DNA of 64,000 bases from Mobula hypostoma (lineage: Eukaryota), in assembly GCF_963921235.1 (NCBI RefSeq), contig NC_086097.1:80416001-80480000 (forward strand). The letters are read 5' to 3'. How positions within the stretch are numbered: the stretch's first letter is position 1; every line of letters begins with the position of its first letter. Position numbers and translations under genes: made by a program. The notes below the pieces were generated by a model. The model worked only from the letters and a program-made list of their open reading frames with translations, was not told where the DNA came from and did not search any database. This document shows positions 35,201 through 40,166 of the stretch, piece after piece.

Positions 35201-35640
35201 TCCAGTCAAATTTGGCCAGTTCCCCTCTCATGCCATTGTATTTTCCTTTATACCACTGAAATACCGACACATTGGATTTTATTTTTTTCCCTGTCAAATT
35301 TCAATGTGAACTCAATCATATTGTGATCACTGTTCCCTAAAGGTTCTTTAACCTTAAGCTCCCTTATCACTTCCGGATCATTGCACAACACCTAATCTAG
35401 TGCAGCCAATCCCCTAGTGGGCTCAACAACAAGCTGTTCTAAAAATCCATCCCTTAGACATTCTACAAATTCTCTCTCTTCAAGTCTAGTACTGAGCTGG
35501 TTTTCCCAATCCACTTTCATGTTAAAATTGTAACGATTATCATGACATTGCCTTTCTAACACACCGTTTCTATCTCCTGCCATAATTTGTAATCCACATC
35601 CTGGCTTCTGTTTGGAGGGCTGCATACAACTGTATACAGT
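32219..35640 (-). mobile_element. CR1 LINE (EN remnant, RT, 3' end) split by a Rex1 insertion
   Basis: (CATAAGA)n tail at 32219. ORFs 32588-33046, 33217-33579, 35022-35297 and 35392-35676 carry CR1 motifs. Confidence 0.85.
33655..34590 (-). mobile_element. Rex1/Babar LINE 3' portion
   Basis: YREEIKNLVAWCEDNNLSLNVSKTKELVVDFR..FKFLGV..FYRCTVESIL and LPSGRRLRSL..TTRFGNSFFP. (TATACTT)n tail. Confidence 0.85.
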
Positions 35641-35719
35641 GGGCAATTGTTCTCTTGTCTGGAGGAAAAGTGACATATTTGAAAAACTCTAACACAATTG
35701 TAATTTTTTTAATACACTA

Positions 35720-36458
35720 CGTAGCCCCCTGGTAAGCCTCAGGCTCGCTCAGCTCGCTTTTGTCTAGGGGAGCAGCCTGCAGCCCCACCACCCCGCCAAA
35801 CTGGGTAATCAAGTTTGTGTGGATGCTGTGTGATGTATCCCACCCCGCCAAATAACAGACACCATATGCGATTAAATGATTACACTTTATAGGTCTTACC
35901 GGAAGTATGTAATTAACAATGTTAAAATATAGAAGGGAAATAAAATAAAATATAAAAGGAAAATAAAAGGCGCCAAACTTATCAGAGTTCAACCACTTCG
36001 TGCACAACCGTTGGAGCTCAAGTAACGGAGTCTTCTTTCCACCATCCGATCTCCTCCGACCTCCTCGACCCGCCACCTGGGACCAACCACGGTAATCGAC
36101 CAGATGCTGCACATGAGTCTGTCTTCGTCTCCTCTCCTCGCCGAAGACCCTTGACCTCGGACTCCCGCTCAGGTTCGGTCCCACCGTCCAGGGTCACAGC
36201 ATCGCGTCTCCTCTCTCTGTCCCCATCGCGCCTTCTGCCTCAAAGCCCGCGAAAAATAGCTTACAGACACACAAGAAAGAATAACACCAATCCCAATTGA
36301 TTAGCAAATGAATACAATTCTTTTTATAACCCAAACAAGCTGCTAGTGAGAGAACTTTCTCAGCAGTTATTATTACAGAAAAGCCATTTTAATTACAACA
36401 TAACAAAGAAGCCATTTTTTTAGCCTTCGTGGTAACATAAAAGAAGAAACCCCTTACA
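35720..36458 (-). repeat. 3' LTR of the myosin-carrying Gypsy element
   Basis: Direct repeat of 38988-39701 with scattered substitutions and small indels. Confidence 0.92.
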
Positions 36459-36472
36459 CTCTTCCCCCCACC
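36459..36472 (-). promoter_or_regulatory. Polypurine tract
   Basis: Minus strand GGTGGGGGGAAGAG directly upstream of the 3' LTR. Confidence 0.85.
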
Positions 36473-36751
36473 AAATAAAGTCATGTCCTCATGACTTCTA
36501 AATAACTCGCCAACCACCCCTGCAGACACAAAAACCCAATCCAGGTACGAACAGTCACATTGCTCCCCAAACAGTAGTCCTTACGCCCAGTTCCACAGGC
36601 GCTACACAGGCCAACCTATCTGGGAGTTTCCTAATCCTCCGAGACCTCCATACCTCCTCACCTAAGCCCTTCGTGCAGGGACACTACCGGGGATAGCTCG
36701 GGTCTGCTTGCCAAATCCTCTCTCAAACTCTCACTCAAACCCCCACCGCAA

Positions 36752-38248
36752 CTAGGAGCCCCCTGTCCAGGGCCCTACCTCTTTTCCTTCAGTGTCCTGC
36801 TGTAACCCAGGCTGCCCACAGATAGCCCTCCCCACTACACCTGACTCAGTGGGAGAAGGGCCAAAAGTCTCTTCCTCAATCAAGGGGAAGTTAGCGAAAG
36901 GCAGCATGTACCACACATCCAGCACATCATCTTTCGAATCAGTATTCTTCCTCATTCCCTCGATCGGTAGCTGATGTTTGATTTTCTCCAGAATGAAGCA
37001 CTTAGCCTGGGCTGCCTCTGCAGCCTCTTCAGCCTCCTGCAGTCGAGACGTCAGCTTCTTCTCTGACTCCTCCATCTCTCGCCCCAGTCTCAGCAGTTCT
37101 GACTCACACTTCATGTCCGTCTCCATCAGGGACGCAATTACACCACCAGCTACTTCCAATCTGTTCTGGATTGATTTCTTGAGTTTCTGCTGATCCTTTT
37201 GAAGGTTGGTCATGGTGTTGTCTCTCTGGATTAATTCATCAGTAAATGACCGCAGTTTCGGATTGGAATTACATTTCCCTGTCTCCACTTTGACGAGCAT
37301 GAACTCCAGTTCTTCAATGGTTGTCCAGGGCTCCGGCACTTGTCTCACATCATCGTCCCCAAAGGCAAATCCAAACCCGAGGCGATCATCCACATACGCC
37401 AAAACTCCAAACACCTCCACATCCCCCATGGTCTTCCTCATGCCCCGCGGGAAGGTTGCAAGGGCTGCAGATATGCCCTGGGGCATCTTTTCGGATCGGA
37501 AGAATCCTAGGGGACCTATAACGGCTGTCTTCTCCTTGTCGGCCTCACTCATCAAGATCTGGCAACATCCACTCCTCAGATCCAACACATTAAACCACGT
37601 AGCACCACACAAACAGACCATCTTGTCTTCGGCCCTCAGGACCGTATTCTGGTCAATGACAGTGCGCCTGTTCAGAGTCCTATAATCCACACACACGCTG
37701 CCTACGTCTTCTACTGCTACAGGGGCCAGTCGCCGCGACCTCTCTCTCACTGAGGTATCTTCAGCGGTCAACTCCCCTCCCTCGTGGTATTTCGGAGCGT
37801 CTACTAAGAGGGTCTCACTCTCAGGTACTTCCCCCAGGCTGTACCATAATCGGTTCTCGTTTAAATTCGGCACCGGCCCAAGGCTGCTACACCCGTCCTC
37901 ACAAGCAGCTCGAAATGCTGGGTGCACAGACAATACCCCCATGAACTCCAGTGTCACTGACCAATAATCTTCTTCTGGATAATCACTGGCACTGGTACTC
38001 CAATTCTCCAGTGCCCTTAATGTTGTCAAGGGTAAATGCTTCAGAAACCAGTTGTAAAGCGAACTGTACAACAACTTGACCTGCGCCCCGGTGTTGAGGA
38101 TGGCTTTAGCATAGCTTCCATCTATCCGTAATGACACATGGGGGCGTGGTCCCTCTAAGCCTTCAGGAATAGGGTCTTTTCCTTTCGGAAGTTCCTTGGT
38201 ACATTGCTGGGAACATGCTCCCCCAGAGATCCCAAGCCGTTCCCCCAC
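36752..38248 (-). CDS. Chimeric pol-like ORF (498 aa): inactivated aspartic protease, truncated RT, myosin heavy-chain rod fragments, pol tail
   Basis: AILNTGAQV (DTG to NTG), [38 protein letters not shown], then aa 309-430 myosin-like ([16 protein letters not shown]). Expression and start codon unknown. Confidence 0.7.
36959..37324 (-). pseudogene. Captured sarcomeric myosin heavy-chain (class II) coiled-coil fragments, possibly MYH16-like
   Basis: Three blocks match myosin rod sequences as recalled: [15 protein letters not shown] ~ [40 protein letters not shown] ~ RLEEAGGATS..EAE(F/L)..[38 protein letters not shown] ~ [31 protein letters not shown]. Confidence 0.85.
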
Positions 38249-38986
38249 TGGGCCTCCACTAAGTTTCCCAACACCTCTCTGATCAGCTGAACAACTGAGG
38301 GAGGGGCTGATCCCCTTAAATGATCACCCTGGCACTGCAACCAATTTAGCTGCTCTCCTAGCCAGAGAAGATACACCTGACAGCTTTTCCCCAATCTCCT
38401 GACACAGGTATGGAAAGCCCCTCATGCACTGCATTTTACTTCCAGTCGAACCAGACGCATTTTCCCCCGCTTTCAGATAACTGGCAGCTGTCACTATGGG
38501 GTAATTGACCCTAACAGTTCTAACACCGTCACCAGCCCGCCTACTCAAACTTTCAACCAATCCCTGTCGCTGTCCCTCAGCTGAGCACTGCCACTCATCT
38601 AACAACCGAGAGATCTGCTCCGCCCACCTCTCGTACGCCTCCGCCCCTTTAGGGATGGACACTATCCCAAAAACCAGGCGGAGCCTGCCATAGCTGGAAC
38701 ATTGATTCACAGACACTACCTCCGAATCAGACCACTCTTTCCTCTCTCTCCTAACAGTATGGACAGCCCATGGTCCCGCCTCACCTGGCAGTCCCACCAC
38801 CAACTGGTCAGCGCTAGTCTGAACTTGAACAAAGACCTTTGTGGTAGTAAGTAATAAGCATAAGTAATGCAGCTTCCCACAGAGACACACATTACTAACT
38901 GCAATCCCACAGAGATATAGCAGCACTGATTTAAACAGGGCAATCACATAGCACACCACTGAATCAAATCTCGGACACAGCCCCAA
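38155..38986 (-). pseudogene. PNMA-like Gypsy gag (shortened, frameshifted)
   Basis: YGRLRLVFGIVSIPKGAEAYERWAEQ..LLDEWQCS..QRQGLVESL resembles the PNMA/Gypsy capsid motif. Split across ORFs 38324-38986 and 38155-38394. Confidence 0.75.
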
Positions 38987-38987
38987 A
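38964..38987 (-). promoter_or_regulatory. Primer-binding site, tRNA-Pro-like (degenerate)
   Basis: Minus strand TTTGGGGCTGTGTCCGAGATTTGA next to the 5' LTR, versus canonical Pro PBS TGGGGGCTCGTCCGGGAT(TTGA). Confidence 0.65.
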
Positions 38988-39701
38988 TGTAGCCCTCTGG
39001 TAAGCCTCAGGCTCGCTCAGCTCGCTTTCGACTAGGGGGAGCAGCCTTCGGCCCCGCCAAACTGGGTAATCAAGTTTGTGTGGGTGCTGTGTGATGTACC
39101 CCACCCCTCCAAATAACAGACAGTACAGCATATGCAATTAAATGATTACACTTTATAGATCTTACTGGAACTAAGTAATTAATAGAGATAAAATATAAAA
39201 GGAAAATAAAAGGCATCAAACTTATCAAAGTTCAACCACTTTGTGCACAAGCGTTGGAGTTCAAGTAACGGAGTCTTCTTTCCACCATTCGATCCCCTCT
39301 GACCCCCTCGACCCACCACCTGGGACCAACCACGGTAGTCGACCAGACGCTGCACATGAGTCTGTCTTCGTCTCCTCTCCTCGCCGAAGGCCCTGGGCCT
39401 TGGACTCCTGCTCAGGGTCGGTCCCGCCGCCCAGGGTCACAGCATCGCATCTCTGCTTTCTGTCCCCATCGCGCCTTCTGCCTCAAAGCCCGCGAACAGT
39501 AGCCTACAGACACACAAGAAAGAATAACACCTATCCCAATTGGTTAGCAAATGAATACAATTCTCTTTATAACCCAAACAAGCTGCTAGAGAGAGAACTT
39601 TCTCAGCAGTTATTATTACAGAAAAGCGAATTGCATTATAACATAACAAAGAAGCCATTTTATTAACCTTCGCAGTAACATAAAAGAAGAAACCCCTTAC
39701 A
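38988..39701 (-). repeat. 5' LTR of the myosin-carrying Gypsy element
   Basis: TG...CA ends; direct repeat of 35720-36458. Confidence 0.92.
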
Positions 39702-40166
39702 ACTAGAACAGGCGTTATGATCATGGGTTAATATCTCTTGATATTGTATATTTTCACCTCATTTCAATCCTCTATCTGAATATTTGAAAGGGTATTTCCA
39801 TTGTACCATTAATCACACAGAATCTGCCTACCAAATCTTTACTTATCCTTGTATTCGATTTAGTTAATTAACAATTGACTAAAACCTTTAGCTGATATTA
39901 TAATTCCTGTCCTTGAATTGGAAGCCATGAGGGAAACCTAATAATGGGCTTCCCCTGCATCATTCAGACGATATTGGCAGACTGTGAATACATATAAAGT
40001 AAATTTAATATCATAGTATGCATATATGTCACCATATACCACTTTAGGTTCATTTCCTTGTAGGCATTTACTGGAAAATAAAGAAATGCAATAGAATTTA
40101 TTAAAAATTACAAAAAGGCAAAAACTGACAAGCAACCAATGTACAAAGGAAGACAAATCGTGCAAA

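What the first reader, a model, noticed from the sequence alone, without database searches (positions are those of the whole stretch)
35720..39701. Gypsy LTR retroelement that has captured myosin heavy-chain rod sequence in frame with its reverse transcriptase
Seen directly: a complete LTR insertion (paired LTRs, ACTA TSD, PBS, PPT). Its 498-aa pol-frame ORF runs protease-like, then RT up to YVDD, then ~120 aa of heptad coiled coil, then a pol-like tail, with no RNase H or integrase. From knowledge of myosin II rods: aa 309-430 (36959-37324) match sarcomeric myosin heavy-chain S2/LMM, e.g. [16 protein letters not shown] vs [16 protein letters not shown]. By recall, [14 protein letters not shown] and DELIQRD look closer to MYH16 than to MYH7. 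Inference: a non-autonomous Gypsy family transduced host myosin mRNA, analogous to retroviral oncogene capture, and was then mobilised in trans. The cis signals are kept and the TSD is clean.
Basis: partly seen in the sequence, partly recalled or inferred. Interest (0 to 1): 0.92.

Follow-up and report, generated by a model that had tools for sequence, protein, structure and literature searches.

The report
Dead jumping gene carrying myosin fragment
This is a decayed copy of a crippled Gypsy-type jumping gene that long ago swapped part of its copying enzymes for a spliced piece of a muscle myosin gene and then spread, cargo included, to many places in ray genomes, where gene-prediction pipelines sometimes mislabel it as myosin.

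Summary
Window 35720-39701 (minus strand) is a complete LTR insertion: 739/714-nt LTRs 92% alike, ACTA target duplication, PBS-like site and polypurine tract. Inside lie a truncated PNMA-type gag, a protease remnant, and an internally deleted RT that ends at YVDD. Then come about 43 codons of RT/RNase H relic and 96 codons (36968-37255) of myosin rod in three joined pieces. The last 71 codons are the parental Pol C-terminus.

The myosin call is solid. In 1.84 billion proteins, the only hits outside the family were striated myosin tails. Pfam Myosin_tail_1 itself does not score the segment.

A longer-cargo sister copy is intron-free across a host exon junction, so the source was spliced mRNA. 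On limited sampling, a tree and AU test put the cargo with MYH16 rather than MYH7/fast myosins, though outside shark MYH16.

It is a family: 40 of 40 scored genomic matches carry the same junctions (1043 first-look candidates), with unrelated flanks. Relatives occur in Mobula, Hypanus and Hemitrygon proteins.

An abundant autonomous Gypsy family shares its PPT, PBS region, LTR ends and Pol tail. Copies decay neutrally.

This is a new member of a known kind, LTR-mediated retroposition. The scan already found this family on another piece of the genome.

The parts
35716..35719 (.). Target-site duplication, ACTA on the + strand
   Evidence: The same four bases directly flank both LTR outer ends.
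35720..36458 (-). 3' LTR in element sense, 739 nt
   Evidence: Direct repeat of 38988-39701, 92.2% identical, K2P 0.083. Starts TG; its last dinucleotide differs from the CA of the other LTR at a CpG.
36459..36472 (-). Polypurine tract abutting the 3' LTR
   Evidence: A 14-nt purine run. Near-identical runs sit at the same place in L069 and in the autonomous relative L070.
36473..36754 (-). 3' untranslated internal region plus the ORF stop codon (36752-36754)
   Evidence: Window about 36432-36659 matches the pre-LTR region of L070 at 68% over 233 nt.
36755..36967 (-). Tail: last 71 codons, derived from the C-terminus of the parental Pol, downstream of integrase
   Evidence: tblastn to the end of the L070 pol frame: 48% over 60 aa, E 3.8e-7. 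DNA 73% over 143 nt. Coordinates.
36968..37063 (-). Myosin piece 3 (32 codons), matching MYH7 about 1395-1421 in PDB numbering
   Evidence: PDB phmmer E 4e-9 to an MYH7(1361-1425) construct. 18/31 identical to the host sarcomeric exon, z 8.7, 0 of 200 shuffles. Shares the motif AAEAAQA with shark MYH16.
37064..37162 (-). Myosin piece 2 (33 codons), matching MYH7 about 1150-1182
   Evidence: HMMER domain aligned to MYH7 1135-1182. Host exon e: z 6.6, 0 of 200 shuffles.
37163..37255 (-). Myosin piece 1 (31 codons), matching MYH7 about 973-1003
   Evidence: Weak alone (host exon b: z 2.8, 2 of 200 shuffles). It is homologous to the start of the longer L069 cargo. That cargo matches MYH7 973-1090 at E 3.4e-7 and host exon b at z 8.5.
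37256..37384 (-). Scrambled relic of the RT C-terminal part and RNase H (43 codons); not myosin
   Evidence: The matching L069 stretch aligns to the RNase H of autonomous L070: z 8.8, 0 of 500 shuffles. The window stretch is DNA-homologous to that L069 stretch (87 of 100 aligned nt, gappy, read in another frame). Alone it is not significant (z 1.5, 55 of 500).
37385..37765 (-). Reverse transcriptase remnant ending at YVDD (37385-37396), with an internal deletion in the fingers
   Evidence: Pfam RVT_1 E 1.7e-6, 28.3 bits, just under the 29.6 cut-off. tblastn to L070 RT: 41% over 260 aa, E 1.5e-43, with a 31-residue gap.
37943..38170 (-). Protease remnant; catalytic aspartate substituted, and 51 residues missing relative to P0002
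   Evidence: tblastn to the L070 protease region: 52% over 132 aa, E 3.4e-31. Pfam RVP only faint (E 0.065). Gap seen in the alignment to P0002.
38324..38326 (-). Stop codon between the gag frame and the pol frame; private to this copy
   Evidence: 0 of the 21 other copies that cover this codon read a stop there.
38378..38659 (-). Truncated PNMA-type Gag (N-terminal part only)
   Evidence: Pfam PNMA E 1.6e-12, 47.6 bits, profile positions 6-99 of 161. tblastn to L070 gag: 29% over 200 aa, E 5e-15.
38970..38987 (-). PBS-like region next to the 5' LTR
   Evidence: A TGG-initiated stretch begins 2 nt after the LTR. It is homologous to the same region of L069 and L070. The priming tRNA was not identified.
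38988..39701 (-). 5' LTR in element sense, 714 nt
   Evidence: Direct repeat of 35720-36458, with TG...CA termini.
39702..39705 (.). Target-site duplication, ACTA on the + strand

Best explanation
The locus is one dead copy of a non-autonomous Ty3/Gypsy-type LTR retrotransposon family of batoid fishes.

Origin. Its ancestor was an autonomous element of the type seen in L070: PNMA-type gag, protease, RT, RNase H, integrase and a long Pol C-terminal extension. During reverse transcription inside a virus-like particle, the RT most likely switched from the element's RNA to a co-packaged, spliced mRNA of a sarcomeric myosin heavy chain related to MYH16, and then back. This replaced the distal RNase H and all of integrase with a stretch of myosin rod, in the sense orientation and in frame. 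This is LTR-mediated retroposition.

Spread. The chimera kept the LTRs, PBS, PPT, leader and 3' end. Proteins of autonomous relatives could therefore copy and insert it, giving at least hundreds and probably about a thousand copies. Lineages then lost different internal pieces of gag, protease, RT, RNase H and the myosin cargo. The window's subfamily keeps three short cargo pieces.

Shown: the anatomy; myosin homology; the intron-free cargo; shared junctions across copies; independent insertions; a related autonomous family with matching cis signals; neutral decay of copies.

Inferred: the template-switch mechanism, helper-dependent mobilisation, and an origin before the manta and stingray lineages split.
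For: Anatomy.

Myosin homology:
- PDB phmmer with the window segment: the top 10 of 13 hits are myosin II heavy chains, best E 4e-9.
- With the longer L069 cargo: 11 of 11 hits are myosins, with query 32-150 aligned to MYH7 973-1090 at E 3.4e-7.
- Whole-library phmmer over 1.84 billion representatives: 26 hits at E <= 1e-3. Fourteen are family ORFs, 2 of them with RVT_1. All 12 others carry Pfam Myosin_tail_1 at the cognate profile region.
- The best real myosin hit is a pig MYH16 fragment: E 1.2e-9, 100% identical to pig MYH16.

Collinear match to host sarcomeric exons b, c, e and l: z 8.5, 5.7, 9.4 and 4.9, each 0 of 200 shuffles. The b|c junction is intron-free with the same 8-residue spacing as the host.

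Family:
- 1043 first-look candidates for the 501-nt junction probe. 40 of 40 scored matches cover at least 498 nt; the 39 that are not the window itself are 90-93% identical.
- 29 of 29 fetched copies span both cargo junctions.
- 15 clean 3' flanks are unrelated; among all 17 flank rows the highest identity is 47.5%.
- Target duplications of the window copy, L069 and L070 all differ.

Helper:
- 32311 first-look candidates for the RT-RNase H region. The 135 scored are 76-86% identical to a Hypanus Gypsy Pol.
- L070 carries RVT_1, RNase H, Integrase_H2C2 and rve in that order.
- L070 matches the window element in protease, RT, tail and 3' UTR at 68-73% DNA identity. LTR patches reach about 80%, the PPT is near-identical, and the PBS region and TGTA...ACA LTR ends correspond.

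Decay: 29 of 29 other copies have an in-frame stop and 28 of 29 a frameshift, at scattered sites. dN/dS between the window copy and L069 is 0.64-1.12 by segment.

Other species: predicted proteins of Hypanus sabinus, Hemitrygon akajei, Mobula birostris and M. hypostoma carry the same chimera. Contigs of runs from two coded organisms bridge the cargo's 5' (RNase H relic-myosin) junction.

Mechanism precedent: Tan et al. 2016, PMC5131818 (abstract and passages read).
Against: - Pfam Myosin_tail_1 does not score the window ORF, P0001 or the 221-aa L069 cargo, even at E <= 10.
- Window piece 1 is barely significant alone.
- The cargo is only 41% identical (40/96) to the one host sarcomeric gene reconstructed. 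No host MYH16-type exon was seen among the 150 scored matches, so the actual source gene was not found.
- Microsimilarity at the fusion points, the hallmark of template switching, could not be examined because the junctions are too decayed.
- Only one autonomous copy was compared, and it is 68-82% identical. A closer helper may exist, or the true helper may be extinct.
- No transcript evidence was obtained.
- Copy numbers are first-look candidate counts plus 40-150 scored matches, not a census.
Confidence: 0.85

Rival explanations
1. Classical read-through transduction, as proposed for retroviral oncogenes. An element sat upstream of, or inside, the myosin gene. A read-through transcript was spliced into downstream myosin exons. 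One template switch with a normal element RNA then restored the 3' end.
For: The 3' cargo junction lies inside a host exon, as a non-homologous switch would give. In the window and L069 subfamilies the cargo begins at or within a few codons of the start of host exon b. Tan et al. cite this route as an alternative (passage).
Against: Other subfamilies carry cargo reaching much further 5'. More than 100 scored genomic matches cover pig MYH16 fragment residues 3-170 or more without interruption. Narcine P0137 also extends upstream of exon b. The exon-b start is therefore a later deletion end, not the capture point. The original 5' junction was not seen.
Confidence: 0.1
2. DNA-level origin. A LINE-made processed myosin pseudogene landed inside a resident Gypsy copy, and that composite was later transcribed and retrotransposed.
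For: The genome does hold intron-free myosin pseudogenes outside LTR elements, of the non-muscle type, for example C18:48745523-48746731 with 6 stops. An intron-free cargo fits this route as well.
Against: The cargo replaces RNase H and integrase rather than interrupting them. It is in frame and in sense. It is a partial mid-mRNA fragment with no A-run at its 3' junction. This is the pattern described for template switching.
Confidence: 0.05
3. The cargo matters to the element. The gag-to-tail fusion frame, or the coiled coil in it, was kept by selection in the active lineages, for example for multimerisation or to keep the RNA translated and stable.
For: - No stop is shared by most of the 29 copies, so the subfamily founder's 523-codon frame was open.
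- The window's gag-pol stop is private: 0 of 21 other copies have it.
- L069 has one 812-codon frame, and Hypanus P0002 a 729-residue model.
- Simulated neutral divergence of 5-10% leaves a 523-codon frame open in only 0.4-6% of trials.
- Myosin and RT segments give dN/dS 0.64-0.65.
Against:
- dN/dS rests on 13 synonymous against 31 non-synonymous changes and is not shown to differ from 1. Gag, protease and tail give 0.9-1.1.
- 18 copies differ from the window copy by the same 1-nt indel near the end of gag. Continuity of gag with pol in the founder is therefore not established.
- The RNase H relic and the linker before the protease are read in different frames in different subfamilies.
Confidence: 0.12
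4. There was no capture. The heptad stretch is a generic or convergent coiled coil native to the element.
For: Pfam Myosin_tail_1 does not match. Coiled coils attract spurious similarity.
Against: - No non-myosin coiled-coil protein reached E <= 1e-3 among 1.84 billion proteins.
- Matches are collinear with the rod and specific to striated myosin.
- The autonomous relative has RNase H and integrase at that position, with no coiled coil.
- The cargo forms a clade beside MYH16 in the tree.
Confidence: 0.02

Closest known systems
LTR-mediated retrocopies of animals (Tan et al. 2016, Genome Res 26:1663, PMC5131818; abstract and passages read)
   Same: A partial, intron-free host mRNA segment replaces part of the internal ORF of an LTR retrotransposon. 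Both LTRs are kept. The cargo is in sense and can be in frame. [quoted passage not shown]
   Different: [quoted passage not shown] Here the chimera became a long-lived multi-subfamily repeat with about a thousand candidate copies in several ray genera. The microsimilarity at fusion points that defines their model could not be checked.
Bs1 of maize, an LTR element carrying fragments of three host genes (seen only as described in the review PMC13317346, passages)
   Same: A non-autonomous LTR element with transduced, partial host coding segments forming a hybrid reading frame.
   Different: Bs1 is a plant element carrying three different genes. This is a vertebrate Gypsy element with one cargo gene, broken into pieces by later internal deletions. 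I recall Bs1 as low in copy number; I did not check that here.
Acutely transforming retroviruses: oncogene capture and helper dependence (recalled; Swain and Coffin 1992 seen only as cited)
   Same: Host mRNA sequence replaces pol-region genes. The cargo is fused in frame to viral reading frames. The element is defective and depends on a helper.
   Different: No evidence that the cargo gives any advantage. The cargo is a structural rod fragment without the motor domain. The element spread in the germ line as a repeat rather than as an infectious agent.
Non-autonomous LTR elements copied by autonomous relatives (MaLR by MERVL, named in the introduction of PMC5131818; ETn by MusD, recalled)
   Same: Shared LTR ends, PBS and PPT with an autonomous family, together with loss of working pol genes.
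   Different: As I recall, the internal parts of those elements are not recognisable host coding sequence.

Membership tests
Ty3/Gypsy-type LTR retrotransposon | Paired LTRs with TG...CA termini and a short (4-6 bp) target-site duplication | tested here: met
   LTRs of 739 and 714 nt, 92.2% identical. Both start TG; one ends CA and the other differs at a CpG. ACTA lies on both sides.
Ty3/Gypsy-type LTR retrotransposon | PBS next to the 5' LTR and polypurine tract next to the 3' LTR | tested here: met
   A TGG-initiated stretch starts 2 nt after the 5' LTR and a 14-nt purine run lies before the 3' LTR. Both are homologous to those of L069 and L070. The priming tRNA was not identified.
Ty3/Gypsy-type LTR retrotransposon | Pol domain order protease, RT, RNase H, integrase (integrase after RT) | tested here: met
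   Met in the autonomous relative L070: RVT_1, RT_RNaseH, Integrase_H2C2 and rve in that order, with the protease region upstream. The window copy keeps protease and RT remnants in that order.
Autonomous (self-sufficient) retrotransposon | Intact protease, RT, RNase H and integrase | tested here: not met
   The protease catalytic residue is substituted and 51 residues are missing. RT lacks part of the fingers and everything after YVDD. RNase H is a scrambled relic. No integrase match.
LTR-mediated retrocopy (Tan et al. 2016) | An intron-free, usually partial host mRNA segment replaces part of the element's internal ORF, between two LTRs | tested here: met
   Cargo collinear with host exons b, c, e and l, with b|c joined without an intron in L069. 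RNase H relic upstream and Pol tail downstream.
LTR-mediated retrocopy (Tan et al. 2016) | Microsimilarity between mRNA and element at the fusion points | not testable with these tools
   Junctions are about 50% diverged from any source at protein level. Reading them would need founder sequences, which I did not build.
LTR-mediated retrocopy (Tan et al. 2016) | No LINE hallmarks (poly(A), nested target duplication) at the cargo | tested here: met
   No A-run at the myosin-tail junction of the window copy. Not examined in other subfamilies.
LTR-mediated retrocopy (Tan et al. 2016) | Secondary retroposition of the chimera | tested here: met
   40 of 40 scored matches share the junction probe. 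15 clean flanks are unrelated. Target duplications differ.
Myosin II heavy-chain rod (Pfam Myosin_tail_1) | Match to the Pfam Myosin_tail_1 profile | tested here: not met
   No Myosin_tail_1 row for the window ORF, P0001 or the L069 cargo, even at E <= 10. HMMER's filters drop most weak, biased matches.
Myosin II heavy-chain rod (Pfam Myosin_tail_1) | Significant, collinear, family-specific sequence similarity to myosin rods | tested here: met
   All 12 non-family hits in 1.84 billion proteins carry Myosin_tail_1; 10 of those 12 score above its cut-off.
MYH16 (superfast/masticatory myosin) as source paralogue | Groups with MYH16 rather than with MYH7/fast-type sarcomeric myosins | tested here: met
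   Tree: cargo clade plus MYH16 (plus one long teleost row), support 97/96. AU test rejects cargo with MYH7/fast type (p 0.017) and does not reject cargo with MYH16 (p 0.455). Groups were named after the tree was seen, and only two paralogue classes were sampled.
MYH16 (superfast/masticatory myosin) as source paralogue | Nests within chondrichthyan MYH16, as expected for a capture from the host's own MYH16 | tested here: not met
   AU test rejects cargo with shark and chimaera MYH16 as one clade (p 0.011). At 84 diagnostic columns the cargo rows split about evenly, for example L069: 10 MYH16-like, 9 MYH7-like, 17 neither. Long-branch effects cannot be excluded.

The most novel reading that the evidence does not exclude
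The myosin rod was more than a passenger. Active lineages of this chimera kept a single long gag-protease-RT-relic-myosin-tail reading frame open through tens of percent of sequence divergence and several frame changes. That would imply that translation through the cargo, or the coiled coil itself as a multimerising module on a Gag fusion, helped this parasite-of-a-parasite outcompete its helper for packaging. Its cargo would also preserve the sequence of an MYH16-sister myosin that no longer exists as a gene in rays.
Probability: 0.12. Interest if true: 0.7.

Novelty: new member of a known kind. Interest (0 to 1): 0.45.

Why it matters
Capture of host gene fragments by LTR retrotransposons is documented, mostly as single young loci. 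This case shows that in a vertebrate such a chimera can become a successful, long-lived, multi-subfamily repeat shared by manta and stingray lineages.

It gives a natural series of copies for studying how helper-dependent LTR elements evolve. Earlier notes of this scan report Gypsy chimeras with other cargoes (RBM25, SUDS3) in the same genome, which I did not check. If they hold, this genome's Gypsy machinery is unusually prone to such events.

There is also a practical point. The family contaminates gene annotation. Public gene models named 'myosin-16-like', 'myosin heavy chain, cardiac muscle isoform-like' and 'transmembrane protein 192 isoform X1' contain these copies.

Tried and rejected
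1. Expression. No RNA holder was listed. The four runs laid are contigs whose RNA status is only a guess. Nothing can be said about transcription or small RNAs.

2. Pfam Myosin_tail_1 gave no match.

3. BLAST of the cargo against the first 30 host myosin loci, which turned out to be non-muscle-type genes and pseudogenes, found nothing (best tblastn E 0.96).

4. I rejected this: it is an RNase H relic. The PDB domain for it had i-E 61 and host exon a gave z 1.0.

5. I considered that the cargo starts exactly at a host exon boundary, which would favour splice-mediated capture. I rejected this after and Narcine P0137 showed longer cargoes.

6. Selection on the frame is unconvincing: dN/dS is near 1 and the simulation is undermined by how the open copies were chosen. 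By my own hand count, about 82 of 148 repeat-type matches have no stop in about 170 codons. That is close to neutral expectation for young copies.

The least-deleted subfamily was therefore not seen as DNA.

8. The word-indexed protein search with the L069 cargo returned only one family member and no myosin. The whole-library search was needed.

9. Look-up of earlier findings by sequence found nothing.

10. No paper linking a myosin fragment to an LTR element in cartilaginous fish turned up in the held library.

11. Structure and complex prediction were not run.

Full report
OBSERVATION

Two direct repeats bound it: 35720-36458 (739 nt) and 38988-39701 (714 nt). They are 92.2% identical over 708 aligned positions, with 7 gap events and a K2P distance of 0.083.

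Read in element sense, both repeats start with TG. One ends with CA and the other differs at a CpG. The four bases ACTA lie directly outside both ends. A TGG-initiated PBS-like stretch starts two bases inside the 5' LTR. A 14-nt purine run abuts the 3' LTR.

The pol-frame ORF is 523 codons from stop to stop (36752-38323). A 230-codon gag frame (38324-39016) precedes it in the same frame, separated by a single stop. No second copy of the element lies in the window.

DOMAIN CONTENT

- Gag. Pfam finds a PNMA-type Gag covering only profile positions 6-99 of 161 (E 1.6e-12).
- RT. Pfam gives a weak RVT_1 match just under its cut-off (E 1.7e-6, 28.3 against 29.6 bits).
- Protease. The Pfam match is faint (E 0.065).

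Comparison with an autonomous relative from the same genome, L070, is clearer:
- gag: 29% over 200 aa, E 5e-15
- protease region: 52% over 132 aa, E 3.4e-31
- RT: 41% over 260 aa, E 1.5e-43, with a 31-residue gap in the fingers
- last 60 residues before the stop: 48% identical to the extreme C-terminus of L070's Pol, downstream of integrase, E 3.8e-7

The protease catalytic aspartate is substituted in the window copy. 51 protease residues present in a stingray relative are missing. No integrase is left.

IS THE COILED COIL MYOSIN?

Yes, by several independent tests.

- PDB, window segment. Of 13 hits at E <= 1, the top 10 are myosin II heavy chains. The best is an MYH7(1361-1425) construct at E 4e-9. 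The other three hits have E 0.2-0.9.
- PDB, sister subfamily. L069 carries a longer cargo of 221 aa. All 11 hits at E <= 0.01 are myosin II heavy chains. Residues 32-150 align to MYH7 973-1090 (E 3.4e-7).
- Whole library. phmmer of the L069 cargo against 1.84 billion cluster representatives gave 26 proteins at E <= 1e-3. Fourteen have no myosin domain and are family ORFs, two of them with RVT_1. All 12 others carry Pfam Myosin_tail_1 at the cognate part of the profile, 10 of them above the cut-off. No other kind of coiled-coil protein reached the threshold.
- Host exons. Against the exons of one host sarcomeric myosin gene (C68, about 15.39 Mb), the L069 cargo matches exons b, c, e and l in that order. 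The z scores are 8.5, 5.7, 9.4 and 4.9, each beaten by 0 of 200 composition-preserving shuffles. Exons a, d and k do not match.

Against this, Pfam Myosin_tail_1 itself never scores the window ORF, P0001 or the L069 cargo, even at E <= 10. I attribute that to divergence and bias filtering. It is still a failed membership test and is recorded as such.

BOUNDARY CORRECTION

The 43 codons straight after YVDD (37256-37384) include the stretch [12 protein letters not shown]. It is not myosin.

- The corresponding 82 residues of L069 align to the RNase H of autonomous L070 (z 8.8, 0 of 500 shuffles).
- A Mobula hypostoma family protein (P0128) shows the same RNase H motifs more clearly.
- The window stretch is DNA-homologous to the L069 stretch (87 of 100 aligned nt). 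The alignment is gappy and the stretch is read in a different frame.
- Alone the window stretch is not significant, either against RNase H (z 1.5, 55 of 500) or against myosin (PDB domain i-E 61; host exon a z 1.0).

The myosin-derived part of the window copy is therefore 36968-37255, or 96 codons. It consists of three joined pieces of 31, 33 and 32 codons. These correspond roughly to MYH7 973-1003, 1150-1182 and 1395-1421.

SPLICED ORIGIN AND LATER DELETIONS

In L069 the cargo runs through the host b|c exon junction without an intron, with the same eight-residue spacing as the spliced host protein. The source was therefore processed mRNA.

Relative to L069, the window copy lacks 92 cargo residues. 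Hypanus P0002, Hemitrygon P0125 and Mobula P0128 and P0138 each lack different parts. The joints fall in similar rod repeats, for example around an LEE(A/S) motif, not at exon ends.

More than 100 scored genomic matches cover residues 3-170 or more of a pig MYH16 fragment without interruption. Longer cargoes reaching further 5' therefore exist. The cargo start in the window's subfamily, close to the start of exon b, is a secondary deletion end. I had briefly taken it as a sign of splice-mediated capture and withdrew that reading.

I could not read a long-cargo copy as DNA.

FAMILY

A 501-nt probe across the RT-relic/myosin region has 1043 first-look candidates. 40 of 40 scored matches cover at least 498 nt. 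The 39 that are not the window itself are 90-93% identical.

Of the 30 loci fetched, 29 are other copies, 89.6-92.6% identical over the ORF. All 29 span both cargo junctions, and only one indel of 9 nt or more falls inside the cargo.

Seventeen loci contain the outer end of the 3' LTR. Two of these rows are misplaced ends. The 15 clean flanks are unrelated. Across all 17 rows the highest ungapped identity between any two 40-nt flanks is 47.5%.

The three complete elements examined have three different 4-bp target duplications. These are independent integrations, not segmental duplications.

With a stingray family protein as probe there are 1589 first-look candidates and 150 scored matches. The best is 71% identical. 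Several subfamilies therefore coexist. L069 is 75-86% identical in DNA to the window copy.

HELPER

The RT-RNase H part of a Hypanus Gypsy Pol (P0003) has 32311 first-look candidates in this genome. The 135 scored matches are 76-86% identical.

I examined one such copy, L070. Its coding region is broken into three frames. Its LTRs are about 95% identical and it has a 4-bp target duplication. It carries a full PNMA gag, then RVT_1, RNase H, Integrase_H2C2 and rve.

L070 matches the window element in several parts:
- protease, RT, tail and 3' UTR at 68-73% DNA identity
- LTR patches at about 80%
- a near-identical polypurine tract
- a homologous PBS region
- LTR ends of the form TGTA...ACA

This is what a helper, or a cousin of the helper, should look like. 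Trans-mobilisation itself remains an inference.

STATE OF THE COPIES

All 29 other copies have at least one in-frame stop, and 28 of 29 have a frameshifting indel. The stops sit at 29 different site-and-codon combinations, mostly at CpG-containing arginine codons. None occurs in more than 6 of the 28-29 copies that cover its site. The subfamily founder therefore had this frame open, and the copies have decayed independently.

The window's stop between gag and pol is private: 0 of 21 other copies have it. However, 18 copies differ from the window copy by the same 1-nt indel near the end of gag. Continuity of gag and pol in the founder is therefore not settled.

dN/dS between the window copy and L069, by segment:
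- gag: 1.12
- protease: 0.91
- RT: 0.65
- myosin: 0.64
- tail: 0.97

This is close to neutral.

Simulated neutral change of 5-10% leaves the 523-codon frame open in only 0.4-6% of trials. But the open copies were chosen for being open. I treat selection on the frame as a minority reading.

SOURCE PARALOGUE

The best real-myosin hit in the whole-library search is a fragment 100% identical to pig MYH16 (E 1.2e-9, 54.8 bits). MYH7-type hits score 46 bits or less.

I aligned the cargo rows with 11 MYH16 sequences, one lungfish MYH7-like protein, the host C68 gene and myosin fragments. The cargo shares motifs with shark MYH16, such as [14 protein letters not shown] and ELL.L.

Identity of the window cargo:
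- to shark and chimaera MYH16: 51-55% (49-53 of 96)
- to lungfish MYH7-like: 47%
- to the host fast-type gene: 41%

The maximum-likelihood tree (197 columns, 26 rows) gives three well-supported groups:
- a cargo clade including Narcine P0137 (98/94)
- that clade joined to MYH16 plus one long teleost row (97/96)
- these separated from the MYH7/fast group (99/99)

AU tests:
- cargo with MYH7/fast type: rejected, p 0.017
- cargo with MYH16: not rejected, p 0.455
- cargo nested in chondrichthyan MYH16: rejected, p 0.011

At 84 columns diagnostic between the two classes, the cargo rows split about evenly.

The source looks like a relative of MYH16 rather than the sharks' MYH16 itself. Long-branch effects, the naming of groups after seeing the tree, and the sampling of only two paralogue classes all limit this conclusion.

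Among the 150 scored genomic matches to the pig MYH16 fragment, no exon-like match above 58% identity appeared. I could not locate a host MYH16 gene. That is not proof of absence.

OTHER SPECIES AND ANNOTATION

Family ORFs appear as predicted proteins under these public names:
- Hypanus sabinus: 'transmembrane protein 192 isoform X1', 52% identical to the window ORF over 596 columns
- Hemitrygon akajei
- Mobula birostris: 94-95% identical to L069
- Mobula hypostoma: 'myosin-16-like', 'myosin heavy chain, cardiac muscle isoform-like' and 'striated muscle-like'

The host genome is thus manta-like. It is not Hypanus, since the best match to P0002 is 71%.

Narcine bancroftii 'myosin-6-like isoform X4' (P0137) shares derived cargo states and internal deletions, and is sister to all other cargo rows. 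Whether it lies in an LTR element is unknown.

In the tree the two stingray rows nest among the Mobula rows. At least two subfamily lineages therefore seem older than the split of manta and stingray lineages. This is an inference.

Contigs of four runs from four coded organisms cover all 30 bins of the internal region. One contig each from two organisms bridges the cargo's 5' junction, between the RNase H relic and the myosin.

AGE

With K2P 0.083 between the LTRs, the window insertion would be about 40-80 million years old. This assumes a neutral rate of 0.5-1e-9 per site per year. That rate is my assumption, not a measured figure for rays.

The cargo is only about 40-55% identical in protein to any myosin, while copies within a subfamily differ by about 10%. 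The capture therefore long preceded the bursts.

COMPARISON WITH WHAT IS KNOWN

The structure matches LTR-mediated retroposition as described for animals by Tan et al. 2016 (PMC5131818; abstract and passages read). In that model:
- a partial, intron-free host mRNA replaces part of the internal ORF between two LTRs
- the event arises by template switching at microsimilarities inside the particle
- the chimeras are transcribed as pseudo-LTR retrotransposons and can be retroposed again

It also parallels Bs1 of maize, which I saw only as described in the review PMC13317346. In structure only, it resembles defective oncogene-carrying retroviruses (recalled).

What stands out here is the scale and persistence of the secondary amplification in a vertebrate. 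I found no paper on a myosin-carrying LTR element in cartilaginous fish.

Earlier notes of this scan already describe the same family on another piece of this genome (e1-7791871). They also describe Gypsy chimeras with RBM25 and SUDS3 cargo. I saw those notes after my own tests through. They agree with my reading and supplied the lead to Tan et al.

VERDICT

This is a new member of a known kind.

Not shown:
- the switch mechanism (microsimilarity is unreadable)
- the identity of the source gene
- helper dependence
- any expression
- any function of the cargo

Noticed in passing
L070:6994-7643 (autonomous relative, G000:C40): The C-terminal extension of Pol, downstream of integrase, holds about eight tandem 84-nt (28-residue) repeats that are 92-96% alike. 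The chimeric family's tail derives from the region just before them.
   Followed up: no
G000:C18:48745523-48746731, C50:30689110-30689772, C184:304888-305403, C157:172388-172903 (L031-L034): Intron-free, stop-riddled stretches matching hundreds of Myosin_tail_1 profile positions, of non-muscle myosin type. They look like processed myosin pseudogenes unrelated to the Gypsy cargo.
   Followed up: partly
G000:C68:15.31-15.89 Mb: A tandem array of at least seven sarcomeric myosin genes, judged from repeated hits to one rod exon spaced about 65-210 kb apart. One more lies at C2:160.93 Mb.
   Followed up: partly
whole genome: Among 150 scored matches to a pig MYH16 fragment, none looked like a genuine MYH16 exon. 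The best exon-like hits, at 57-58%, belong to the fast-type cluster. Rays may lack a canonical MYH16, or the search missed it.
   Followed up: no
P0141 (Dallia pectoralis, a teleost): A 172-residue predicted protein joins an AbLIM anchor domain to a diverged MYH16-like rod fragment. It sits on a long branch beside the MYH16 and cargo clades. Unexplained; possibly another captured fragment.
   Followed up: no
P0134 (database protein; species not looked up): A predicted protein fusing a Complex1_LYR domain to a piece of the family's myosin cargo. Probably a gene model that swallowed a repeat copy.
   Followed up: no
window 35392-35688 (minus strand): A 98-codon open frame lies directly beside the insertion site. 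I did not examine it. It may be a fragment of another repeat into which the element inserted.
   Followed up: no
L069:791-3229: This sister-subfamily copy reads the linker before the protease and the RNase H relic in different frames from the window copy, yet stays open for 812 codons.
   Followed up: partly
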